A stretch of DNA of 64,000 nucleotides from Escherichia phage IrisVonRoten. The translations under genes were made by a program, and so were the position numbers. Shown one piece after another: positions 7,241 to 28,895 of this stretch (position 1 is the first letter of the stretch; the number at the start of each line of letters is the position of its first letter). A model generated the notes under the pieces. The model saw only the letters and a list, made by a program, of their open reading frames with translations, had not been told where the DNA came from and did no database searches. The stretch lies in sequence record MZ501075; one strand, written 5' to 3'.

Positions 7241-9571
7241 ATGAGCCATCGCATTGAAAAAGTAATTAAACGTGACGGTACTGTAGAAGACTTTGCTCCT
7301 GAAAAACTCAATGGTTGGGCAGAGTATGGTTGCAAAACAGTTGATGTAAGTTGGTCAGCCATTACTATGGCTGCTCAAAAAACTCTGCCTAAAGGGGTTG
7401 TAGATTCCGACACTCTGATGGATGCTTTAATTAAGGCTGCTGAAAGTCTTATCAAAGATAATCCAGCATACGACGTGCCAGCAAAGGAATTACGTCTTGC
7501 GCAAATGCGTAAACGCCTTTATGATTCCTTCGAACCACCTTCTCTGCGCTTTTTCCACGATCATATGGTTAGTGTAGGTGCATGGGAAGACATGAGTGCA
7601 TGGATTACCAATGAGCAATTTGAAGCTCTGAATCAGGTTATCGACCATGATCGCGACCGTCTTTTCACTAGCGGAGGATTGAAACAATTCTTTGATAAGT
7701 ATTCTCGTCGTAATATCGCAACTGGCGAAATTTACGAAACCCCGCAATTTGCCTATATGGGTATGGCAATGGCGATGTTATCTCAACCTAATTGGACAAT
7801 TCTAGATGCAATCGACCTCTACAACGCAATGTCGCTACACAAAATCAACGTTCCTACGCCGCCATTGGTTGGCTTGCGCTCTAGTGACCGTGGATTTGCT
7901 AGTTGCTGCCTCGTGGATTCCACTGACACGTTGGATTCAATCGACACAGCCGAGCACATCGTCTTCAAAATGGTCGCAGCCAGAGCGGGAATCGGGTATC
8001 ATCTTGAAAGCCGATCAATTGCTGATCCGGTGCGAAATGGGGCATTCCCGCATTCCGGAAAACTGCCATATTATCGACACATTGACCGATCAGTAAAGGC
8101 TAATACTCAGCAAACTCGTGGCGGTTCTGCTACAGTGTCTTATCCTTACTTTGACCCTGAAATCATTCAGTTGATGCAGGTTAAGCAACAACGTGCTACA
8201 GATGAGAATAAAATCGATAAGATGGATTATTCTCTGAGCTTCAACAATCTTTTGTTAAAACGTTATCTGAAAAATGAAGATATTACGCTAATGTCATACT
8301 TCTATGCTCCAGAAGTTCATGAAGCGTTTTATAGTGATGACGAGGCTAAATTTGAAGAAATCTATGTGGCAGCGGAGAAACGTGTGGCATCTCTTACAAA
8401 GATCGACCACGAAGGAAAAACAGTTCCAGCAGCTCCTAAAGTCTCTGCAAAAGAAATCCTAGATACTTGGCTACGTATCCGAATGGAAACAGGACGTATG
8501 TATGCTCACCACATCGGGGAATCTAATCGTCATGGTAACTTCCTTGATCCGATCCGTATGACAAACCTTTGTGTTGAAATTACTCAGCCTACACGCCCAT
8601 TCCACCACATTACAGAGCTGTATAAAACAAAAGAACAACTTGATCAAATGAAGCCGGAGGATATTGGGGAAGTATCTCTGTGTAACTTAGGTGGTGTTGT
8701 ACTAGGACGCATGGAATCTCTGGCTGAGTGGGAAAAGACTTGCTATATTCTTCTGAAATTCGTTGATACCATCATTGAAATTCAGGACTATCCGTTCCCA
8801 ACTATGGAATATACAGCTAAGAAACGTCGTAACGTTGGTATTGGCCTTATGAACGCAGCAGGTGCAATGGCAGCAGAAGGTCTGGCTTATGAAGGCGTTG
8901 AAGCACGTAACTGGATCCATCGTGAAGCTGAAAAACTGTCCTACTTCCTGCATAAAGCTTCTGTACGTCTGGCTAAAGAACAAGGTGCATGTGAATGGTT
9001 TAATCGTACTAAACCATCTAAAGGAACTCTGGTAATCGATACGTATAAGAAAACTGTTGATGAGCTGGTATCAGTAGGCCTAGAAATGGATTGGGAATCT
9101 CTGCGTGCAGATATTCTGAAATACGGTATGCGTAACTCTGTTCTGACGGCACAGATGCCGGGAGAAAGTTCTTCCGTTCTGTTAGGGGTTACTAACTCTA
9201 TTGAACCACCTCGTAAGATTGTATCTATCAAGGGTAGTGCAGTGAATAAAGTAATTGCAATTGCTCCCGGTGCAACCGATTGGGAAACTTTAATGAGCTA
9301 TAAACTGGCTTATGATGTGGATCGTATTGAATGGATCAAATGGGTAGCAACTATGCAGAAATTCTTCAGCCAGTCTATCAGTACTAATATGTACTACGAC
9401 TACACCAAGTTTGAGAATGAAATCATTCCTGGCCCAGTAGTAGTTCGTGATTTCATGACTGCTGTTAAATATGGTTGGAAGACTTGGTACTACGCAAACT
9501 TCAACACTGCGAATGGTGGAGGAGCGGGTGAAGAAGCAGCGGGTTGTGCTTCTGGTGGTTGCCAGTTGTAA
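7241..9571 (+). CDS. nrdA: ribonucleoside-diphosphate reductase alpha subunit (class I)
   Basis: ATP-cone start MSHRIEKVIKRDG; catalytic motifs NLCxEI and PGESSS; start set at ATG after RBS aaggaaaa. Confidence 0.9.
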   Translation: MSHRIEKVIKRDGTVEDFAPEKLNGWAEYGCKTVDVSWSAITMAAQKTLPKGVVDSDTLMDALIKAAESLIKDNPAYDVPAKELRLAQMRKRLYDSFEPPSLRFFHDHMVSVGAWEDMSAWITNEQFEALNQVIDHDRDRLFTSGGLKQFFDKYSRRNIATGEIYETPQFAYMGMAMAMLSQPNWTILDAIDLYNAMSLHKINVPTPPLVGLRSSDRGFASCCLVDSTDTLDSIDTAEHIVFKMVAARAGIGYHLESRSIADPVRNGAFPHSGKLPYYRHIDRSVKANTQQTRGGSATVSYPYFDPEIIQLMQVKQQRATDENKIDKMDYSLSFNNLLLKRYLKNEDITLMSYFYAPEVHEAFYSDDEAKFEEIYVAAEKRVASLTKIDHEGKTVPAAPKVSAKEILDTWLRIRMETGRMYAHHIGESNRHGNFLDPIRMTNLCVEITQPTRPFHHITELYKTKEQLDQMKPEDIGEVSLCNLGGVVLGRMESLAEWEKTCYILLKFVDTIIEIQDYPFPTMEYTAKKRRNVGIGLMNAAGAMAAEGLAYEGVEARNWIHREAEKLSYFLHKASVRLAKEQGACEWFNRTKPSKGTLVIDTYKKTVDELVSVGLEMDWESLRADILKYGMRNSVLTAQMPGESSSVLLGVTNSIEPPRKIVSIKGSAVNKVIAIAPGATDWETLMSYKLAYDVDRIEWIKWVATMQKFFSQSISTNMYYDYTKFENEIIPGPVVVRDFMTAVKYGWKTWYYANFNTANGGGAGEEAAGCASGGCQL

Positions 9572-18603: not shown

Positions 18604-18826
18604 ATATTCATAAATTAGAGAACAGCGAGCCGATTACGCTGAGTGCAGAATCCCAACCGGAGCGCATTGAATAGAGTCGGTGGGTTAGTTGGAAAACTAG
18701 TACACAGGGGGCGGCAATCCCGGTTAGTGGCTAGAACGTGTAAAATGGGGCGTCTGAAACCTCTCCCCTAAACTCTTCTTTAATTTACTGATAGTGGGGT
18801 GTGGAAATCACTTATGTAGTAACACT

Positions 18827-18899
18827 GCCGATCTAGTATAAAACGGTATTATCAAGCCGTAACTGGTGGAAGATGTAGGTTCGAATCCTACGGTCGGTA
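18827..18899 (+). tRNA. tRNA-like gene; canonical acceptor and T-arm, anticodon arm unresolved
   Basis: Acceptor gccgatc/ggtcggt; T-arm gtagg-ttcgaat-cctac. Confidence 0.45.
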
Positions 18900-19401
18900 A
18901 GAACTGGATAACTGGTGCTTTTAATGTAAAAGCTTCCGAGGTTAGTTGCGCACTGCCTAAACCACGCGGTAGTTGGTTCCAGACTAACCAACCAGTCTGC
19001 TGAATAGTTTTATTACGATTTAACTATGTCCAGGCTAAAGAAGAACTTTAGAAGGTATTCTAGGATAGTGAAGTTCTTTCTCCATATCGGAGTAGTTTTT
19101 CAAACTATCCACAAAGTGGGAAATGCTGGCATGAGAGATGCCACTAATGGTGCACAATAGCACAGGTAATTCGCGATAACTCCTGTTGAGTAGCAGCAAA
19201 AAGGTGGGGAGTCATGACCCTAACCTAACCGAGTCCTCAGTATACCGCAGGACATAACCACTAAGTCACCTTGACTTAAACTGGAAAATAATAGACGTTA
19301 CTGTATTTTGTCTTGAAATACTTAATGAGTGAGACTTATGACTCTCCCGGTATCGTCTGTATTTTTAAGAGTTTTTACGAGAGTTCTTAAAAATACTTAA
19401 A

Positions 19402-23103: not shown

Positions 23104-23178
23104 GGTTCTCAAGCTCATATGGTATGAGCACCCGGCTCATAACCGGAAGGTACGTAGGTTCGAATCCTCGGGGAGCCA
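23104..23178 (+). tRNA. tRNA (anticodon CAT; Met or Ile2)
   Basis: Acceptor ggttctc/gggagcc, D-arm gctc..gagc, anticodon loop ctcataa; T-stem imperfect. Confidence 0.55.
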
Positions 23179-23202
23179 CCATCTTGATTAGAGAGGTTAC
23201 AA

Positions 23203-23688: not shown

Positions 23689-23762
23689 GGGGGTGTAATC
23701 GAATTGGCATAGGTACTGGACTTAAAATTCAGGTTTTGTGGGTTCGAATCCCACCACCCCTA
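23689..23762 (+). tRNA. tRNA, anticodon tentatively TAA (Leu) but class-I length
   Basis: Acceptor gggggtg/cacccct, T-arm gtggg-ttcgaat-cccac, anticodon loop cttaaaa. Confidence 0.5.
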
Positions 23763-23940
23763 CCAACTTAAGGAAATAAGATGTATAGACATCCACCTCC
23801 GCCAACACGTCGTTCTAGGGAAGTCATCCTCATGGAATTGACGAAAAACTTCAAGGCGACCCTTGAGGATAGAGACTTAGGCACAGATGAAGACGTTGAT
23901 TTCATCTGTAAACTATTAAAAATGAAACTGGAGAAACAAC

Positions 23941-24147
23941 ATGGCTAATCCTGAAATTACCATGCAACGATTCATGGCTAAAGGCATGATAGCCGAGGCA
24001 GGCATTGAACAAGAAGTAAAAAGTTATTACGAACAGATTAAGGATATTATAGACTCTGCTAAAAACACCGGAGAAAAAGAACACGGTGCGGCAATTATGG
24101 CTATAACTCTTATTAGTCTAGACTTGGCCGAAGAATCCGGAGTTTAG
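23941..24147 (+). CDS. hypothetical protein (68 aa)
   Basis: ORF track. Confidence 0.4.
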   Translation: MANPEITMQRFMAKGMIAEAGIEQEVKSYYEQIKDIIDSAKNTGEKEHGAAIMAITLISLDLAEESGV

Positions 24148-24177
24148 CTCCTCCAAACAGAATTTTTAAAAATGTAC

Positions 24178-24207
24178 TTGCCTTTTGCTTTAAATCTCTG
24201 ATATAAT
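24178..24207 (+). promoter_or_regulatory. T5-type early promoter
   Basis: ttgccttttgctttaaatctctgatataat. Confidence 0.5.
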
Positions 24208-24237
24208 AGTTATATAAATTGATGAAGGAGTTAACTA

Positions 24238-24513
24238 ATGCAAAATCGTGTTGTAGCAACTGGTATTGAAAGTGCAATCTGTAAATCCTGGGAAGACTGG
24301 GAAGGTGAGATTGAGTGGCTCTATCTCTATAACGTAGAACTCCTGCCGGAAGTTAAAGCTAAATGTGTTGAAGCTGGCATGGCTCCAGATGCAAAAGCTG
24401 ATATTGATATTTCAATGCCTGAACTTAAAGGTCGTGTAGTTACCGTTAGTAATGAGGGCGAAGAAGTTTTTGAACTTCCGTTCTCCTTAACTGTCACTCC
24501 TAAGTTCGACTAA
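24238..24513 (+). CDS. hypothetical protein (91 aa)
   Basis: ORF after RBS aaggag. Confidence 0.45.
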   Translation: MQNRVVATGIESAICKSWEDWEGEIEWLYLYNVELLPEVKAKCVEAGMAPDAKADIDISMPELKGRVVTVSNEGEEVFELPFSLTVTPKFD

Positions 24514-24549
24514 CTAATACAGCACTGAGCAAGTTCTTCAAAATCTGAC

Positions 24550-24578
24550 TTGCTCAGTGCCTTAAAACTTGATATAAT
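24550..24578 (+). promoter_or_regulatory. T5-type promoter driving tRNA cluster
   Basis: ttgctcagtgccttaaaacttgatataat. Confidence 0.5.
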
Positions 24579-24641
24579 AGTTATCTAATTTGGAAACATA
24601 TTTAAAAGTGTTTAAACAAGTATTTGAATGCTTCTAAATAT

Positions 24642-24726
24642 GGGCGTTTATTCCGTAAGTGGTAGCGGAGGGGATTGTAAATCCCCGGTCATTGCGACTC
24701 GAGTGGTTCGACTCCATTAACGCCCA
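24642..24726 (+). tRNA. tRNA-Tyr (anticodon GTA), long variable arm
   Basis: Acceptor gggcgtt/aacgccc, anticodon arm gggga-ttgtaaa-tcccc, encoded CCA. Confidence 0.65.
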
Positions 24727-24737
24727 CCAAATTTAAT

Positions 24738-24809
24738 ACACCTATCGTCTAAAGGCTAGGACATCAGGATTTCAATCTGAGAATCGGAGTTCAATTCTCC
24801 GTGGGTGTA
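24738..24809 (+). tRNA. tRNA-Glu (anticodon TTC)
   Basis: Acceptor acaccta/tgggtgt, T-arm cggag-ttcaatt-ctccg, anticodon loop atttcaa. Confidence 0.65.
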
Positions 24810-24820
24810 CCAATTTCTGC

Positions 24821-24894
24821 ATTCCTAGAGTGTTACTGGACAGCATGTCGGTCTCCAAAACCGTACGGTCTAGGTTCGAGTCCTAGTAGGTTTG
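24821..24894 (+). tRNA. tRNA-Trp-like (anticodon CCA) with mismatched acceptor stem
   Basis: T-arm ctagg-ttcgagt-cctag; anticodon loop ctccaaa; acceptor has two U-U mismatches. Confidence 0.4.
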
Positions 24895-24903
24895 CCAAAA
24901 TTT

Positions 24904-24975
24904 GCACCTTTAGCTGAGATGGATTAGCGCTTGCCTGAAGAGCTTGAGAGGTTCGTTCGATACGAACAGGGTGCA
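24904..24975 (+). tRNA. tRNA (tentatively Phe, GAA)
   Basis: Acceptor gcacctt/agggtgc, T-arm gttcg-ttcgata-cgaac; anticodon stem imperfect. Confidence 0.45.
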
Positions 24976-24980
24976 CCAAA

Positions 24981-25259
24981 TTGAAGGAGATGCTGATGCA
25001 TCCTGAAAACTTCTTTATTTACTGCGCGGATAAGTCGCTGAAACGTAGAATTAACAAAGTCTATCATTATCGTGCTAGTCAACAGCCTTATGTATACGCT
25101 TTTGACGGCGATCACATTCCACTAGAACAATTATCCTGTGATTACATGATATTGAAGAACTTTGACGAGACAAAGATCTCAAGCGTTTATAATCGACAAA
25201 ATCCATTAACGTGGAAATATAAGAAGAAAAAGAAAGGCATCAAATCCTTAAAAATGTAG
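24981..25259 (+). CDS. hypothetical protein (92 aa)
   Basis: ORF track. Confidence 0.35.
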   Translation: MKEMLMHPENFFIYCADKSLKRRINKVYHYRASQQPYVYAFDGDHIPLEQLSCDYMILKNFDETKISSVYNRQNPLTWKYKKKKKGIKSLKM

Positions 25260-25288
25260 TTGCTTAGTTTCCAAAAGTTCTATATAAT
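25260..25288 (+). promoter_or_regulatory. T5-type promoter
   Basis: ttgcttagtttccaaaagttctatataat. Confidence 0.5.
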
Positions 25289-25336
25289 AATTACATAAAT
25301 TGAACTGGAGAAGCAACATGACAGAACAAGATAAAC

Positions 25337-25409
25337 CGACCGTTGGCTGAATGGCTTAGGCGAAGGATTGCAAATCCTTTTTATGTGAGTTCAAATCTCA
25401 TGCGGTCGT
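25337..25409 (+). tRNA. tRNA-Cys (anticodon GCA)
   Basis: Acceptor cgaccgt/gcggtcg, anticodon arm aagga-ttgcaaa-tcctt, T-loop ttcaaat. Confidence 0.65.
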
Positions 25410-25414
25410 CCAAT

Positions 25415-25555
25415 TTGCTGAAAGAATTGTTAAATCAATTCAGGCACGCGTAGGAACACTGTCTCCGTAATTGAAAGATGAGGCACGGTTTGGAGAGGTA
25501 TGCCGCTACACGCTACGGTGCTAACTCCGTCTAGGTGAAAATCCTAGTCAGCAAT
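25415..25555 (+). ncRNA. approx. 140-nt tRNA-like structured RNA (possible tRNA with insertion)
   Basis: 5' ttgctga pairs with 3' tcagcaa; T-arm-like ctagg-tgaaaat-cctag adjacent to 3' end. Confidence 0.3.
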
Positions 25556-25564
25556 ATAAATTTA

Positions 25565-25644
25565 GGGTCGTTAGCCAAGCGGTTTGGCGGCGGATTGTTA
25601 ATCCGTGTCGAAAGACAACGTAGGTTCGAATCCTACACGGCCCG
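25565..25644 (+). tRNA. tRNA-Asn (anticodon GTT) with unusually long variable region
   Basis: Acceptor gggtcgt/acggccc, anticodon loop ttgttaa, T-arm gtagg-ttcgaat-cctac. Confidence 0.5.
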
Positions 25645-25749
25645 CCAAATTCTGTGTAGAGTTAAGTAAACCGGTAGCCAACCAGCTATCATTGCTGACA
25701 TCGAATTCAGCCACAGATACCATTTTCATTAATAACTGAGGAAACAAGC

Positions 25750-25935
25750 ATGTCCAAGAATGTGATTGCGCAGCTAGAAGTTCATCGTGATAGTACTATC
25801 AACAATATTGAAGTTGAGAAGAAATACATCGAAGAACTTAAACATGATATACTAGTAAGTCTCAATCGTCTTAATGTACGAAAAGAGTTTCTTAAAGAAC
25901 TTAATGCAGCTATTGAAAAACTCAAAGCTGAGTAA
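25750..25935 (+). CDS. hypothetical protein (61 aa)
   Basis: ORF after RBS tgaggaaa. Confidence 0.4.
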   Translation: MSKNVIAQLEVHRDSTINNIEVEKKYIEELKHDILVSLNRLNVRKEFLKELNAAIEKLKAE

Positions 25936-25944
25936 ATAAATTAT

Positions 25945-26018
25945 GCGACCGGGGCTGGCTTGGTAATGGTACTCCCCTGTCACGGGAGGGAATGTGGGTT
26001 CAAATCCCATCGGTCGCG
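25945..26018 (+). tRNA. tRNA-Asp (anticodon GTC)
   Basis: Acceptor gcgaccg/cggtcgc, anticodon arm ctccc-ctgtcac-gggag, T-loop ttcaaat. Confidence 0.65.
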
Positions 26019-26039
26019 CCAAATAAGGTAGGTTAGCTA

Positions 26040-26198
26040 TGGAACGTAGGGAGTTTACTCCAGAAGAGATAGAGCAGATAAAAGAATCTGCTATGAAAAA
26101 TGCTAGAATATCTCTGTCACTGGAAGGTATCATTATTAGTGATGTAAACTTTGAAAAAATCAAAGCCATAGCTGATGAACTGGAAAAAGTAATTTAAT
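26040..26198 (+). CDS. hypothetical small protein (52 aa)
   Basis: Manual ORF MERREFTPEE...; below track cutoff. Confidence 0.35.
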
Positions 26199-26271
26199 AC
26201 ATCCATAGCTCAATGGTTAGAGCTACCGCCTCTTAAGCGGAGGGTTCTAGGTTCAAGTCCTAGTGGGTGTA
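26199..26271 (+). tRNA. tRNA-Lys (anticodon CTT)
   Basis: Acceptor acatcca/tgggtgt, T-arm ctagg-ttcaagt-cctag, anticodon loop ctcttaa. Confidence 0.6.
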
Positions 26272-26300
26272 CCAAATTAAACTAGCACGAGAAATATGCT

Positions 26301-26648
26301 ATGATTAATGCTAAAGAAGAGTTGTTACTTGCCCTAAAGAATACTAAGTCTGAAGTTAAGTGTATTAAGATAGAATTCGGTTATTATGGGGACAAAGAAG
26401 TTTGGGTATTACCAGTAGGTTATACAGAAAAAGATATTGAAGATTTTCTAAATAACCTAGACTTTAAATATGATTCTGGTTTTGGTGGACAATTGCTTTA
26501 TGGTAACGTATGGTTTACTGATGGAACTTGGTTAGAACGTGGTGAATATGATGGTTCTGAATGGTGGGAGTATAAGACTACGCCAGCAATCCCAGAAGAA
26601 TGCCGAACAATTAATGGTGAAGTAGATAATACTTTACGGTTAAACTAA
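26301..26648 (+). CDS. hypothetical protein (115 aa)
   Basis: ORF track. Confidence 0.45.
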   Translation: MINAKEELLLALKNTKSEVKCIKIEFGYYGDKEVWVLPVGYTEKDIEDFLNNLDFKYDSGFGGQLLYGNVWFTDGTWLERGEYDGSEWWEYKTTPAIPEECRTINGEVDNTLRLN

Positions 26649-26770
26649 TAAAATTTCAGTGCAGAACACGGAGCTAGCAATTCGGAAGTGCTGACTCATG
26701 ATAAGCTGCCTATGTACTTGCTAAGCGGTCGTGTCCAAGACTCGGACTCTTGCACTGAAAACAATCAAAC

Positions 26771-26891
26771 ATTCTAGCGTGGTTGATGGGGAAACCAGCT
26801 TGGCGAGGGCAGAAGCTCGTTCGATTCGAGTGAAAGAATGGTTCTCGTAAGTCCGCACAAGTGATAACAGGTTCGAGTCCTGTCTAGAATG
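26771..26891 (+). ncRNA. approx. 120-nt tRNA-like element (acceptor and T-arm canonical, large internal insertion)
   Basis: 5' attctag pairs 3' ctagaat; T-arm acagg-ttcgagt-cctgt; internal about 50 nt extra. Confidence 0.3.
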
Positions 26892-27040
26892 ACACTATAA
26901 AGTTTACTTATTATGTAGGTTCCGATAGATCGGCGGGTCTATTCTGGCATTTAAGAGAGGTCTCGCAAACTTCTTTGTCAGCCGTGGGGTTGGTAGCCTC
27001 CAGGTGGCCTACACAATAAGTAAATTTATTAAAAATTCAT

Positions 27041-27069
27041 TTGCTATTTTGCTTAATTCTCTGTATAAT
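27041..27069 (+). promoter_or_regulatory. T5-type early promoter
   Basis: ttgctattttgcttaattctctgtataat. Confidence 0.55.
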
Positions 27070-27101
27070 ATATCTTATAAAGTGAAGAGAAGGAAAGCTA
27101 A

Positions 27102-27260
27102 ATGAAGTATAAAATTGCATCAGTATTCATGTGTACTTGGGTTATTCCTATAGTAATAGTAGGGTTTAACATAGATAACTTTTCTATCATAGAAAAGTTA
27201 TTAGGACTAAGTACAGGCTTTACAATGCTAGGATTAAGCATGTTGTGGCTGAAGAAATAA
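27102..27260 (+). CDS. small membrane protein (52 aa)
   Basis: ATG after RBS aaggaaag; hydrophobic. Confidence 0.4.
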   Translation: MKYKIASVFMCTWVIPIVIVGFNIDNFSIIEKLLGLSTGFTMLGLSMLWLKK

Positions 27261-27264
27261 TTTT

Positions 27265-27338
27265 CTCCGATTAGCTCAATTGGCTAGAGTACACCGTTTG
27301 GGGCGGTGGGGTTGAAGGTTCGAGTCCTTCATTGGAGA
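27265..27338 (+). tRNA. tRNA-Pro (anticodon TGG)
   Basis: Acceptor ctccgat/attggag, anticodon arm caccg-tttgggg-cggtg, T-arm gaagg-ttcgagt-ccttc. Confidence 0.65.
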
Positions 27339-27348
27339 CCAAACAATT

Positions 27349-27420
27349 GCGGGTGGGAGGCATAGAGTTCTTCTTAGTCTCATAAGCTAAGTAAGTCCAG
27401 GGCAGTACTGGAACCCGCTA
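27349..27420 (+). ncRNA. tRNA-sized tRNA-like element with non-canonical T-loop and 9-nt anticodon-like loop
   Basis: Acceptor gcgggt/acccgc; loop ggcagta in T position. Confidence 0.3.
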
Positions 27421-27444
27421 CCATTTTAATAGGGGATTTCGAAA

Positions 27445-27609
27445 TGAAAGTATTTCGATTAGTAGTAAGTGATCGACGTTCTAGCAAAGATCGTTCGAAG
27501 TATACCTTAGCCCATTATGGTAAAGATGAAAATGAAGTAATGGCTGAATTTGGTATTAACCATCCTTACTTAAAAGTCTACTCTATTAAGGAAGTTTATG
27601 CTTATTAAC
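27445..27609 (+). CDS. hypothetical small protein (54 aa)
   Basis: Manual ORF after RBS aggggatttcgaaATG. Confidence 0.3.
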
Positions 27610-28071
27610 AGGGTACTTCAAGCCCTGGATCTTCCAAGGCACTTTACTATTACTGACTCCTTAATACGTAGGTATATGGAGAAGTATAACGAAATATCTG
27701 GTAAAGAAGGTAAACTAAAGTCCTCGGAGTTTAAGTTCTGTTATAGAATGGCAGCGTTAAACCTGCTGAAGTATAAAAGGGAGCATAAAATCCCTATAAC
27801 AGAAGGGTTTGTATATGTAATAGGTAATCCAGCATGGCCTGGACTCTATAAGATAGGTATGACAGTAGACGTAAATGAAAGACTGTCTAGTTATCAAACA
27901 TATTCTCCCTATCGTGATTACAAGTTATACCATTTTAGATTCTCCTCGGACAAGAGAAGAACTGAAAAAGCATTACATAGTCTTCTGAAAGACTACAAAG
28001 TATCAGGAGAATGGTTTGAAGTACCTCTGTTAGACGCTTTCAAACTATTAGTAGAGAATTTGGATTGCTAG
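27598..28071 (+). CDS. T5orf172 (MUG113-like) domain protein
   Basis: GFVYVIGNPAWPGLYKIGMT...SGEWFEV pattern. Confidence 0.55.
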   Translation: MLINRVLQALDLPRHFTITDSLIRRYMEKYNEISGKEGKLKSSEFKFCYRMAALNLLKYKREHKIPITEGFVYVIGNPAWPGLYKIGMTVDVNERLSSYQTYSPYRDYKLYHFRFSSDKRRTEKALHSLLKDYKVSGEWFEVPLLDAFKLLVENLDC

Positions 28072-28146
28072 CTCAACTGGATAAGAGTAGCGGACCTTTA
28101 ATCCGTCAGTTCTGGGTTCGAATCCCAGGCAATCCACCAAATTTTT
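28072..28146 (+). tRNA. tRNA-Lys (anticodon TTT)
   Basis: Acceptor ggattgc/gcaatcc, anticodon loop cctttaa, T-arm ctggg-ttcgaat-cccag. Confidence 0.65.
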
Positions 28147-28156
28147 GCTCGGTTAG

Positions 28157-28227
28157 TTTAATGGGAGAACCCCGTCTTTACACGGCGGTTGCGATAGTTC
28201 GATTCTATCACCGAGTACCAAGTACAA
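28157..28227 (+). tRNA. tRNA-Val (anticodon TAC)
   Basis: Acceptor gctcggt/accgagt, anticodon stem ccgtc/ggcgg, loop tttacac. Confidence 0.6.
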
Positions 28228-28245
28228 GAAATTTCAAAAACTCAT

Positions 28246-28274
28246 TTGCTTAATGCTTAATTTCTTGTTATAAT
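28246..28274 (+). promoter_or_regulatory. T5-type promoter driving structured RNA and tRNAs
   Basis: ttgcttaatgcttaatttcttgttataat. Confidence 0.55.
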
Positions 28275-28289
28275 ATTTATATAAATTGA

Positions 28290-28510
28290 TGAGGAGAAAT
28301 CCTCATCATAGTTCACTAAGGTATTAGCTCGACCTAGGACTGGCTGCCAAAAAGCACGATCCCTACGATTTGGGAGAAGTTCTAGATTAGTCCACTAGAT
28401 TCAGCGGCAACTGAATAGTGTATCGGGTTTGCGAGATGACGTAGTTCCTTCCGCTCGAAGCGAAGGTGCTGTAGTTACGCCGAGCTAATAGCCTTAGTAA
28501 ACTAAAGAAT
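28290..28510 (+). ncRNA. ORF-free structured transcript (leader or small RNA)
   Basis: Hairpin gatgaggagaaatcctcatc; long-range pairing attagctcg (28323) with cgagctaat (28480). Confidence 0.3.
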
Positions 28511-28512
28511 TT

Positions 28513-28588
28513 GGGGAATGGGTCTGCATGGAGTGGACACCTCGCTTGCACCGAGGACATCAGAACGGTTCGATTCCGTTATTCTCCA
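28513..28588 (+). tRNA. tRNA-Ala (anticodon TGC)
   Basis: Acceptor ggggaat/attctcc, anticodon arm cctcg-cttgcac-cgagg, T-arm aacgg-ttcgatt-ccgtt. Confidence 0.6.
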
Positions 28589-28596
28589 CCAAATAC

Positions 28597-28670
28597 GCGT
28601 GATTGATGGAATGGGCATACATACCGTCCTTAGAAGTCGGGTTTTGAGGGTTCGAATCCCTTGTCACGCA
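28597..28670 (+). tRNA. tRNA, anticodon tentatively TAG (Leu) but class-I length
   Basis: Acceptor gcgtgat/gtcacgc, T-arm gaggg-ttcgaat-ccctt, anticodon loop cttagaa. Confidence 0.5.
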
Positions 28671-28785
28671 CCAAATTTGATGGTCAGAGTAAATTAAACC
28701 TACTATCTCGGTTGAGCTGTTTTAATGGGTTCGAATCCCAGCGAGGCGTAACTGCCTGGTGTGATAGAGGCATCATCTTATTATT

Positions 28786-28873
28786 GGAAGAGCAAATCGA
28801 ATTGGCGACGAAAACCGCTTGGAAAGCGGCTGACTGGTAAAACGGCTTGAGAGTTCAAATCTCTCCTCTTCCG
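28786..28873 (+). tRNA. tRNA-Ser (anticodon GGA), long variable arm
   Basis: Acceptor ggaagag/ctcttcc, anticodon loop ttggaaa, T-arm gagag-ttcaaat-ctctc. Confidence 0.6.
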
Positions 28874-28895
28874 CCAAACAATTGAGGTAATAATA

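What the first reader, a model, noticed from the sequence alone, without database searches (positions are those of the whole stretch)
23689..28670. Two class-I-sized tRNAs with apparent leucine anticodons (TAA, TAG)
The tRNAs at 23689-23762 and 28597-28670 share the same architecture (5-nt variable loop gtttt) and have anticodon loops cttaaaa and cttagaa. Bacterial tRNA-Leu normally has a long variable arm. These could be unusual Leu isoacceptors, or, if the anticodon is shifted by one position, potential stop-codon readers.
Basis: seen in the sequence. Interest (0 to 1): 0.45.

Follow-up and report, generated by a model that had tools for sequence, protein, structure and literature searches.

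The report
Phage leucine tRNAs lacking long arm
Two genuine leucine tRNA genes of a T5-like phage lack the long extra arm that bacterial leucine tRNAs normally carry but keep the features the host's leucine-charging enzyme reads; the genes are already in databases and this armless form turns out to be common in phages.

Summary
The window is a T5-like phage (Tequintavirus) tRNA cluster. ARAGORN and Rfam both call tRNAs at 23689-23765 (anticodon UAA) and 28597-28673 (UAG). Each is 77 nt with CCA and has a 5-nt variable loop, GUUUU.

They are not stop-codon readers. Each has a canonical 7-nt anticodon loop with U33, and TAA ends 26 of 39 long ORFs in the window.

They are not pseudogenes, although RefSeq flags them as such. 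In 109 related sequences, all 20 cloverleaf pairs show compensatory changes and 98.8% of cells are paired.

Both keep the published E. coli LeuRS identity set: A73, A14, the A15-U48 pair, G18G19, A20a and a 3-bp D stem with an 11-nt loop. Published work shows the long arm is dispensable for E. coli LeuRS. Ser and Tyr tRNAs in the same phages, whose synthetases need the arm, keep theirs.

Their cognate codons, UUA and CUA, are the Leu codons the phage over-uses relative to E. coli.

Best reading: ordinary Leu isoacceptors charged by host LeuRS. Charging is inferred, not shown.

Identical genes sit in hundreds of deposited genomes. Armless tRNA-Leu is widespread in phages (26 of 58 in a Leu-independent sample) and in Actinomycetota chromosomes. 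I found no paper discussing it for phages. Interest is modest.

The parts
23689..23765 (+). tRNA-Leu(UAA), class-I size, 77 nt with encoded CCA. Layout: acceptor 1-7/66-72, U8 A9, 3-bp D stem, 11-nt D loop, 5-bp anticodon stem, 7-nt loop, 5-nt variable loop, T arm, A73.
   Evidence: ARAGORN. Rfam tRNA model at 57.4 bits. 100% identical in about 290 deposited T5-like phage genomes.
23698..23714 (+). D arm of Leu(UAA): atc / gaattggcata / ggt. It carries A14, A15, G18G19 and A20a in the same spacing as the E. coli tRNALeu loop gaattggtaga.
   Evidence: Segment table. The signature is found in 8/8 E. coli Leu genes, 0/22 other E. coli tRNAs and 0/23 other window tRNAs.
23723..23725 (+). Anticodon TAA (reads UUA/UUG), inside the loop c-t-TAA-a-a at 23721-23727.
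23733..23737 (+). 5-nt variable loop GTTTT. Its last base is U48, the partner of A15.
   Evidence: U48 is invariant in alignment A1.
23762..23762 (+). Discriminator A73, followed by the encoded CCA at 23763-23765.
   Evidence: A73 is invariant in 109/109 sequences and in 180/180 short Leu tRNAs from IMG/VR.
28597..28673 (+). tRNA-Leu(UAG), class-I size, 77 nt with encoded CCA. It starts 5 nt downstream of tRNA-Ala(UGC). There is one U-U mismatch in the anticodon stem (30-40).
   Evidence: ARAGORN. Rfam at 47.7 bits. At least 95% identical in about 160 deposited genomes.
28606..28622 (+). D arm of Leu(UAG): atg / gaatgggcata / cat.
28631..28633 (+). Anticodon TAG (reads CUA/CUG, possibly further CUN codons), in the loop c-t-TAG-a-a. 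Position 37 is A; E. coli leuW has G there.
28641..28645 (+). 5-nt variable loop GTTTT ending in U48.
28670..28670 (+). Discriminator A73, followed by the encoded CCA at 28671-28673.

Best explanation
Both genes encode functional leucine isoacceptor tRNAs of a T5-like phage that have the short 5-nt variable loop of class I tRNAs instead of the long arm of bacterial tRNALeu.

Shown here:
- Both fold into a cloverleaf that is kept by compensatory changes across a large family.
- Both have standard anticodons, UAA and UAG.
- Both retain every element reported as necessary for E. coli LeuRS: A73, A14, the A15-U48 pair, G18G19, A20a, an enlarged D loop on a 3-bp D stem, and U54/U55/C56/A58.

Inferred:
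- The host (E. coli or Salmonella) LeuRS charges them with leucine. This enzyme reads neither the anticodon nor, according to published mutagenesis, the long arm.
- They then decode UUA/UUG and CUA/CUG (possibly more CUN codons), supplementing the host pool for the two Leu codons that this A+T-rich phage over-uses.
- The arm could be lost only in Leu. Of the three class II isotypes, Leu is the only one whose bacterial synthetase does not need the arm.
For: Callers:
- ARAGORN and Rfam agree on both tRNAs and on the anticodon position.

Structure:
- 109 sequences of 77 nt align without gaps.
- All 20 of 20 pairs carry double changes, 98.8% of cells are paired, and covariation is 0.986 against 0.24 in shuffles and at most 0.16 when slid.

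Identity:
- U8, A14, A15, G18, U48, U55, C56, A58 and A73 are invariant.
- The D-arm signature is present in 2/2 window Leu tRNAs and 8/8 E. coli Leu genes. It is absent from 0/23 other window tRNAs and 0/22 other E. coli tRNAs.
- In IMG/VR loci the signature occurs in 123/180 short Leu tRNAs against 24/1349 non-Leu tRNAs. A73 is present in 180/180 and U48 in 179/180.
- Among tRNAs that did not themselves match the search pattern, signature plus A73 plus U48 goes with Leu anticodons 35 times and with other anticodons 11 times.

Literature:
- E. coli Leu identity rests on A73, A15-U48, G18G19, A20a and the D/T tertiary pairs, not on the anticodon or the long arm. [quoted passage not shown]

Specificity of the arm loss:
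- In the same viral loci Ser is long in 119/120 and Tyr in 44/45.
- In a Leu-independent sample, Ser is short in 0/45.

Codon match:
- Window Leu codons are TTA 26.3%, CTA 19.3% and CTG 20.6%.
- An E. coli sample gives 14.8%, 3.8% and 46.1%.

Conservation:
- Leu(UAA) is 100% identical in about 290 genomes whose flanks are only about 91-95% identical.
Against: - No aminoacylation or expression data exist for these tRNAs in anything I could search.
- Fan et al. 2019 (PMC6614811) report that E. coli LeuRS did not charge the Streptomyces type I tRNALeu(CAA). They state that E. coli LeuRS charges only type II.
- Cho et al. 2025 (PMC12360207) see contacts between the variable loop and K809/R811 of E. 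coli LeuRS, so charging may be less efficient than for host tRNALeu.
- Leu(UAG) has A37 where the E. coli CUN readers have G37 (m1G37), and it has a U-U mismatch in the anticodon stem.
- Single-sequence MFE folding does not reproduce the cloverleaf (z = -1.2 and -1.7).
- A plain identity ranking does not place E. coli tRNALeu as the nearest neighbour, so descent from a class II tRNALeu is not shown.
- RefSeq flags both genes as pseudogenes in phage VSe12.
Confidence: 0.85

Rival explanations
1. They are stop-codon suppressors. The anticodon is read one base 5' of the standard position (U33-U34-A35 = UUA), so they decode UAA as sense.
For: Both loops contain t-t-a at positions 33-35. Nothing else supports this.
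Against: - The loop is a canonical 7-nt loop on a covarying 5-bp stem, with U33 and a purine at 37.
- Positions 34-36 vary in the family only among Leu anticodons. Position 36 switches between A and G, which a shifted reading leaves unexplained.
- TAA ends 26 of 39 ORFs of at least 150 aa, and all three stop codons are used.
- ORFs of at least 60 aa under the standard code cover 81% of the window.
Confidence: 0.01
2. They are decaying or non-functional tRNA pseudogenes, as the RefSeq annotation of phage VSe12 and the tRNA-OTHER and tRNA-Xle labels in some records imply.
For: - Both genes carry the pseudo flag in NC_048794.1.
- Some records label them tRNA-OTHER, tRNA-Xle or even tRNA-Thr.
- Leu(UAG) has one U-U mismatch.
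- The Rfam score of Leu(UAG) is in the lower half of the cluster.
Against: - All 20 base pairs are maintained by compensatory changes in 109 sequences.
- The tertiary and identity positions are invariant.
- The CCA end is encoded.
- Leu(UAA) is 100% identical across about 290 genomes whose flanks have diverged.
- The pseudo flags are what isotype models trained on class II tRNALeu would produce. This last point is my inference.
Confidence: 0.04
3. They are class I tRNAs of another amino-acid identity whose anticodon has changed, so Leu codons are partly decoded as another amino acid (recoding or deliberate mistranslation).
For: - Plain identity ranking puts window Pro(UGG) and Lys tRNAs among the closest neighbours of Leu(UAA).
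- Precedents exist in yeast mitochondria, where CUN is read as Thr or Ala (PMC7609411).
Against: - Anticodon-independent alternatives are excluded by sequence. There is no G3:U70 (both have G3-C70), so they are not Ala. There is no long arm and no G73, so they are not Ser.
- From established identity rules (general knowledge), the synthetases that share A73 read the anticodon, which here is UAA or UAG.
- The Leu-type D arm, A73 and U48 co-occur with Leu anticodons far more often than with any others.
Confidence: 0.04
4. They are Leu tRNAs whose arm loss is itself adaptive. On this view they are counter-defence tRNAs that escape host or competitor nucleases which recognise or cut the long variable arm or the anticodon loop of host class II tRNALeu, rather than simple codon-supply tRNAs.
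For: - T5 tRNAs do serve as anti-defence spares. T5 tRNALys works against PARIS (PMC11464382).
- T5 tRNATyr works against retron-Eco7 PtuAB and Septu, which cut the variable loop of host tRNATyr. The phage copy resists because of its different variable loop (PMC13096335).
- Mammalian SLFN11 targets type II tRNAs (cited in PMC13056530).
- Armless Leu recurs in unrelated phage families.
- A37 replaces the host's G37 in Leu(UAG).
Against: - I found no bacterial defence nuclease known to target tRNALeu.
- The same architecture is the ordinary chromosomal tRNALeu(UAA) of many Actinomycetota, so it needs no defence rationale.
- Many phages carry class I and class II Leu side by side, and T5 itself keeps a class II allele.
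- The codon-usage match already explains retention.
Confidence: 0.12

Closest known systems
E. coli tRNALeu isoacceptors leuZ (UAA) and leuW (UAG)
   Same: Same anticodons. A73 is present. U8 with G9 or A9. The D stem is 3 bp and the 11-nt D loop has A14 A15 U16 N17 G18 G19 Y20 A20a (gaattggtaga against gaattggcata). U48 is present. The T loop has U54 U55 C56 A58.
   Different: The E. coli tRNAs are 85-87 nt with a 13-15-nt variable arm; the phage tRNAs have 5 nt. Phage Leu(UAG) has A37 and leuW has G37. Acceptor and anticodon stems are unrelated in sequence, and overall identity is not higher than to other tRNAs.
Type I tRNALeu(CAA) of Streptomyces coelicolor (Fan et al. 2019, PMC6614811)
   Same: A bacterial-type tRNALeu with a short variable loop that coexists in one cell with type II tRNALeu and a single LeuRS.
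   Different: The Streptomyces tRNA is chromosomal, and its LeuRS needed a special leucine-specific domain to charge it and did not use A73. E. coli LeuRS did not charge it. The phage tRNAs must work with enterobacterial LeuRS and keep the full E. coli identity set, including an invariant A73.
Human mitochondrial tRNALeu(UUR)
   Same: Class I size, UAA anticodon, and identity specified mainly by A73 and A14 without a long arm (PMC9976931).
   Different: It is an organellar tRNA with a structurally weak anticodon arm and a dedicated mitochondrial LeuRS. The phage tRNAs have canonical D/T-loop elements.
Phage T5 tRNAL1(UAG) (AY543070)
   Same: Same phage group, same anticodon and the same slot immediately after tRNA-Ala(UGC).
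   Different: The T5 gene is 85 nt and class II, with the variable arm agcttaaatgcgt. It has no meaningful sequence similarity to the window's gene. The two are alternative alleles: about 54 records carry the T5 type and about 162 the class I type at 90% identity or more. T5 has no tRNALeu(UAA).
Engineered minimal E. coli tRNALeu lacking the variable arm and anticodon arm (Larkin et al. 2002, as summarised in PMC9976931)
   Same: These show that E. coli LeuRS can charge and edit tRNALeu without the long arm, provided A73 and the D/T tertiary contacts are intact. Those are exactly the features the phage tRNAs conserve.
   Different: They are laboratory constructs, whereas the phage tRNAs are natural, full-length decoding tRNAs. 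I could not read the original paper.

Membership tests
Bacterial tRNALeu as a substrate of E. coli-type LeuRS | Anticodon from the Leu boxes (NAA or NAG) at positions 34-36 of a 7-nt loop | tested here: met
   UAA and UAG, called by ARAGORN. The loops are c-t-TAA-a-a and c-t-TAG-a-a.
Bacterial tRNALeu as a substrate of E. coli-type LeuRS | Discriminator A73 | tested here: met
   A at 23762 and at 28670. Invariant in 109/109 and in 180/180.
Bacterial tRNALeu as a substrate of E. coli-type LeuRS | A15-U48 Levitt pair, A14, G18G19 and A20a in an enlarged D loop on a 3-bp D stem | tested here: met
   Segment table. The signature regex matches 2/2 window Leu tRNAs and 8/8 E. coli Leu genes, and 0/45 other tRNAs from the window and E. 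coli. The list of elements comes from PMC9976931.
Bacterial tRNALeu as a substrate of E. coli-type LeuRS | T-loop partners U54, U55, C56 and A58 for the D/T tertiary pairs | tested here: met
   Both T loops are ttcgaat. U55, C56 and A58 are invariant in A1.
Bacterial tRNALeu as a substrate of E. coli-type LeuRS | Long variable arm (class II architecture, more than 10 nt) | tested here: not met
   The variable loop is 5 nt, GUUUU, in both. This is a textbook hallmark of the family, but it is reported not to be an identity element for E. coli LeuRS.
Bacterial tRNALeu as a substrate of E. coli-type LeuRS | Leucylation by host LeuRS | not testable with these tools
   No data were found. The literature conflicts on whether E. 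coli LeuRS accepts type I substrates.
Type I (short-variable-loop) tRNALeu, as in Streptomyces and mitochondria | Variable loop of 4-5 nt with a Leu anticodon in an otherwise complete cloverleaf | tested here: met
   The cloverleaf is supported by covariation.
Type I (short-variable-loop) tRNALeu, as in Streptomyces and mitochondria | Coexistence with type II tRNALeu and a single LeuRS in the same compartment | tested here: inconclusive
   All E. coli K-12 tRNALeu genes fetched are type II, and no E. coli chromosome holds a homologue of the phage gene. Coexistence during infection follows by inference. The window was not scanned for a phage LeuRS, and none is annotated in the stretches of VSe12 and T5 I examined.
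Nonsense suppressor tRNA | Anticodon complementary to a stop codon (UUA, CUA or UCA) at positions 34-36 | tested here: not met
   The anticodons are UAA and UAG. TAA, TGA and TAG all terminate long ORFs in the window.
tRNA pseudogene | Loss of constraint: broken pairs and drifting conserved positions | tested here: not met
   98.8% of cells are paired with compensatory changes. Tertiary positions are invariant. Leu(UAA) is 100% identical in about 290 genomes.

The most novel reading that the evidence does not exclude
Armless (class I) tRNALeu may be a recurrent phage adaptation rather than a neutral curiosity. Bacterial LeuRS ignores the long arm, so phages can shed it, and also change position 37. 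The resulting Leu tRNAs would be invisible to host or rival-phage nucleases, or to other factors that recognise class II tRNAs by their variable arm. They would then be counter-defence spare parts, like T5 tRNATyr and T5 tRNALys. A corollary is that enterobacterial LeuRS efficiently charges natural type I tRNALeu, contrary to the published statement that only Streptomyces LeuRS does so among prokaryotes.
Probability: 0.15. Interest if true: 0.7.

Novelty: new member of a known kind. Interest (0 to 1): 0.35.

Why it matters
The genes themselves are not new. Identical sequences are deposited in hundreds of T5-like genomes, mostly labelled tRNA-Leu. What matters is the following.

- **A natural test of LeuRS recognition.** These tRNAs are a natural, strongly conserved case of a short-armed tRNALeu that has to work with enterobacterial LeuRS. 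That supports 1990s-2000s mutagenesis showing the long arm is dispensable. It is in tension with a 2019 claim that E. coli LeuRS charges only type II tRNALeu. One aminoacylation assay would settle the point.
- **Scale.** The architecture is far commoner than the literature I could search suggests. It makes up about 45% of tRNA-Leu calls in a Leu-independent sample of viral contigs, and it also occurs in Actinomycetota chromosomes and in bacterial tRNA arrays.
- **Annotation.** Pipelines mislabel these genes as pseudogenes or as tRNA-OTHER, which distorts phage tRNA and codon-usage analyses.
- **Logic of the arm loss.** Only Leu loses the arm; Ser and Tyr do not. This mirrors which synthetases need the arm.

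Tried and rejected
- **MFE folding.** Neither sequence gives the cloverleaf, and the z-scores are only -1.2 and -1.7. This is uninformative and is superseded by covariation.
- **Pairwise identity ranking.** I ranked D arms and whole tRNAs with the variable region and anticodon removed. It did not single out E. coli tRNALeu: window Pro(UGG) has the most similar D arm to Leu(UAA). So I do not claim descent from a class II tRNALeu by deletion.
- **Comparison with T5's class II tRNAL1 in the same slot.** There is no real similarity, so the class I gene is not a deletion derivative of that allele.
- **BLAST of Leu(UAA) against 5,426 E. coli genomes.** It returned only 23-nt T-arm matches on plasmids and no chromosomal homologue.
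- **Promoter and terminator scan of 22.8-29.4 kb.** Counts equal the shuffled expectation, so no conclusion about transcription units.
- **Literature.** Eight full-text searches and targeted reads found no paper discussing short-armed tRNALeu in phages. That includes the phage-tRNA evasion paper and the PARIS, retron and Septu papers. Larkin 2002 and Scherberg & Weiss 1970 are not held.
- **Rejected readings.** I rejected the shifted-anticodon suppressor, pseudogene, and Ala or Ser identity readings; see the rival explanations.

Full report
**What the window is**

The 6.4 kb around the finding matches T5-like phages of Salmonella and Escherichia at 91-95% identity. The best matches are Salmonella phage VSe12, genus Tequintavirus, and Escherichia phage OSYSP. 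ARAGORN finds 25 tRNA genes between 18.8 and 32.4 kb, all on the + strand. Rfam and a comparison with T5 add at least two more.

**Checking the observation**

ARAGORN calls tRNA-Leu(taa) at 23689-23765 and tRNA-Leu(tag) at 28597-28673. Both are 77 nt with an encoded CCA. The Rfam tRNA model matches 23689-23762 at 57.4 bits and 28597-28670 at 47.7 bits, against a gathering score of 29.

- the anticodon loops are cttaaaa and cttagaa;
- both variable loops are gtttt;
- both tRNAs share one layout: 7-bp acceptor, U8 and N9, a 3-bp D stem, an 11-nt D loop (gaattggcata or gaatgggcata), a 5-bp anticodon stem, the T loop ttcgaat, and A73.

In the same window Ser(GCU), Ser(UGA) and Tyr(GUA) keep long arms and are 88-90 nt. 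All eight E. coli K-12 tRNA-Leu genes I fetched are 85-87 nt with 13-15-nt variable regions.

**Real tRNAs, not chance and not pseudogenes**

Leu(UAA) is 100% identical in about 290 deposited phage genomes. Leu(UAG) is at least 95% identical in about 160. The surrounding DNA is only about 91-95% identical.

More distant matches of full length and without gaps occur in unrelated phages:
- Vequintavirinae (PVP-SE1) has one short and one long Leu.
- Felixounavirus (KhF2) has three short Leu tRNAs, with anticodons UAG, CAA and UAA, and no long one.
- Another Ounavirinae phage, Pectobacterium Wc4-1, has one short and one long Leu.
- Schitoviridae (Pseudomonas ZC08) has one short and one long Leu.
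- Other Demerecviridae, Vibrio JSF10 and Aeromonas AhP_Mru1, carry a short Leu.

A pattern scan of IMG/VR hit its 120-locus limit. ARAGORN found 180 class-I-size tRNA-Leu genes in those loci, 170 of them unique.

I aligned 109 of the 77-nt sequences. They aligned without gaps. On the class-I cloverleaf, 98.8% of cells are standard pairs and all 20 pairs show changes on both sides. The covariation score is 0.986, against 0.24 ± 0.009 in shuffles and at most 0.16 when the 3' partners are slid by 1-3 columns.

This contradicts the pseudogene flags that RefSeq puts on both genes in phage VSe12. It also contradicts the tRNA-OTHER, tRNA-Xle and tRNA-Thr labels in a few records. Isotype models trained on class II tRNALeu would be expected to produce such labels; that is my inference.

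**Amino-acid identity**

The review by Giegé and Eriani summarises E. coli leucine identity as follows (PMC9976931). A73 is crucial. The anticodon and the long arm are not. In vitro selection shows that the A15-U48 Levitt pair, G18G19 and A20a are essential. The G18:U55, G19-C56 and U54:A58 contacts matter. [quoted passage not shown]

Both window tRNAs have every one of these elements.

I turned the D-arm geometry into a signature: U8, a 3-nt stem strand, then N13 A14 A15 Y16 N17 G18 G19 N20 A20a N21 A22. Results:

| Set | Leu tRNAs with signature | Non-Leu tRNAs with signature |
|---|---|---|
| Window | 2/2 (short) | 0/23 |
| E. coli K-12 sample | 8/8 (long) | 0/22 |
| IMG/VR loci | 123/180 (short) | 24/1349 |

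In the IMG/VR set A73 is present in 180/180 short Leu tRNAs, against 56% of other tRNAs. U48 is present in 179/180, against 35% of other class I tRNAs.

The search pattern itself fixed part of the D loop and the anticodon loop, so I repeated the test on tRNAs that do not match the pattern. Signature plus A73 plus U48 then goes with Leu anticodons 35 times (CAA 20, UAG 8, UAA 5, GAG 2) and with all other anticodons 11 times.

Other identities are unlikely. There is no G3:U70, since both tRNAs have G3-C70, so they are not Ala. There is no long arm and no G73, so they are not Ser. By established identity rules, the remaining synthetases that accept A73 read the anticodon.

**Why only Leu loses the arm**

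In the loci that hold short Leu genes, Ser is long in 119/120 cases and Tyr in 44/45. In a sample chosen without reference to Leu, through a tRNA-Gly(UCC) pattern, 26 of 58 tRNA-Leu calls are class-I size. In that sample Ser is short in 0/45 and Tyr in 3/21. All 26 short Leu tRNAs have A73.

This is the pattern expected if the arm can be lost only where the synthetase does not need it.

**Decoding**

The window has 39% G+C. In its 39 ORFs of at least 150 aa, Leu codons are TTA 26.3%, TTG 10.7%, CTT 16.4%, CTC 6.7%, CTA 19.3% and CTG 20.6%. In eleven E. coli K-12 genes from the fetched loci they are TTA 14.8%, CTA 3.8% and CTG 46.1%. The cognate codons of the two phage tRNAs, UUA and CUA, are therefore the Leu codons the phage over-uses, by about 1.8-fold and 5-fold.

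**The stop-codon idea**

The loops are canonical, and the 5-bp stem beneath them covaries. Positions 34-36 vary in the family only among Leu anticodons. TAA terminates 26 of the 39 long ORFs, TGA 9 and TAG 4. An efficient UAA reader would run through the phage's main stop codon. I reject this reading.

**Relation to T5 itself**

T5 (AY543070) has a single tRNA-Leu, tRNAL1(UAG). It is 85 nt and class II, and it sits in the same slot directly after tRNA-Ala(UGC). The depositors' note says an anticodon swap converts it into an amber suppressor.

It shows no real similarity to the window's gene. About 54 T5-like records carry the T5 allele at 90% identity or more, and about 162 carry the class I allele. 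Phage SB9 combines a class I UAA gene with the class II UAG gene. The tRNA region is mosaic.

The window's Leu(UAG) is closer to the Leu(UAG) genes of PVP-SE1 and KhF2 (82-83% identity outside the variable region and anticodon) than to anything in its own cluster. This suggests exchange of tRNA genes between unrelated enterobacterial phages. Whether the class I form arose by deletion of an arm or has another origin is not resolved.

**Bacteria**

The same pattern scanned over GTDB species representatives also hit its limit. Most hits are single-copy chromosomal class I tRNALeu(UAA) genes of Actinomycetota, including Nocardia, Mycobacterium, Gordonia, Rhodococcus and Arthrobacter. About twenty loci are dense tRNA arrays, with 10-28 tRNAs in 8 kb, in cyanobacteria, Acidobacteriota and other groups. 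These arrays carry several class I Leu genes. No enterobacterium appears in the list.

**Literature**

Type I tRNALeu is documented for animal mitochondria and for Streptomyces coelicolor tRNALeu(CAA) (PMC6614811). That paper found E. coli LeuRS unable to charge the Streptomyces tRNA and states that E. coli LeuRS charges only type II.

Cho et al. 2025 report contacts between the variable loop and LeuRS residues K809 and R811 (PMC12360207). These two points are the main reasons for caution about charging efficiency.

T5 tRNAs are known counter-defence tools. T5 tRNALys acts against PARIS. T5 tRNATyr acts against retron-Eco7 and Septu, which cut the variable loop of host tRNATyr. This motivates the speculative reading that arm loss helps evade nucleases. 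I found no nuclease known to target tRNALeu, and no paper that discusses short-armed tRNALeu in phages.

**Verdict**

The two genes are functional leucine isoacceptors of class I architecture. They are most likely charged by host LeuRS (inferred; confidence about 0.85) and supply UUA and CUA decoding.

The genes are already in public records. The kind, type I tRNALeu, is known. Their membership of it, and the scale of the phenomenon in phages, seem not to have been described. Interest is modest for this window. It is higher for the general pattern and for the open question about E. coli LeuRS.

Noticed in passing
window 23104-23181 (+): A tRNA-Ile2(CAU)-type gene that ARAGORN missed. Rfam scores it at 40.3 bits. 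It is 76/78 identical to T5 tRNAI2(CAU), and the two differences form a compensatory G-C to A-U change in the anticodon stem.
   Followed up: partly
window 28786-28876 (+): A long-arm tRNA-Ser(GGA) of 91 nt, ending GCCA, missed by ARAGORN and seen only as a weak Rfam tRNA-Sec hit (24 bits). It aligns with T5 tRNAS2(GGA) and resembles PVP-SE1 Ser(GGA).
   Followed up: partly
window 28680-28760 (+): A T-arm-like fragment, GGGTTCGAATCCC at about 28727-28739, lies between tRNA-Leu(UAG) and tRNA-Ser(GGA). It may be a tRNA remnant or one of the tRNA-like stable RNAs annotated in T5.
   Followed up: no
window 25565-25647 (+): tRNA-Asn(GUU) is 83 nt with a 13-nt variable region, GTCGAAAGACAAC, that can form a small hairpin. 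This is the converse oddity: a class I isotype with an enlarged variable region. PVP-SE1 Asn is 85 nt and T5 Asn is 78 nt.
   Followed up: no
window 18826-18900 (+): ARAGORN calls a tRNA-Ser(ACU) with an 8-bp acceptor and an aberrant layout (Rfam 34.5 bits). A similar call falls inside the 'rnaX' stable RNA of T5 (L255 17432-17505).
   Followed up: no
window 28513-28591 (+): tRNA-Ala(UGC) is 79 nt with a 7-nt variable loop and an unusual D arm. PVP-SE1 has a near-identical architecture. T5's tRNA-Ala in the same slot is 75 nt and differs in sequence.
   Followed up: no
L255 (T5 AY543070) 7625-7709; T5 itself carries a class II 85-nt tRNALeu(UAG) in the slot where the window has the class I gene, and it has no tRNALeu(UAA). 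Among T5-like records, about 54 have the class II allele and about 162 the class I allele.
   Followed up: yes
L256 (RefSeq NC_048794.1, phage VSe12) 1189-1262 and 6232-6305: RefSeq marks both class I tRNA-Leu genes, and also Tyr, Val and one Met, as pseudogenes. Other records label the same sequences tRNA-OTHER, tRNA-Xle or tRNA-Thr.
   Followed up: partly
L135-L254 (genome-contig scan): Many Actinomycetota (Nocardia, Mycobacterium, Gordonia, Rhodococcus, Arthrobacter, Rothia, Amycolatopsis) have a single-copy chromosomal class I tRNALeu(UAA), with a sequence beginning gcccccatagcccaattggcagaggc. Dense tRNA arrays in cyanobacteria, Acidobacteriota and other groups hold several class I Leu genes.
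   Followed up: partly
window 28634 and homologues: In every database phage checked (T5-like, PVP-SE1, KhF2, Wc4-1, JSF10), the class I tRNALeu(UAG) has A37. E. coli leuW has G37, the m1G37 site. The IMG/VR set cannot test this, because the search pattern fixed A37.
   Followed up: partly
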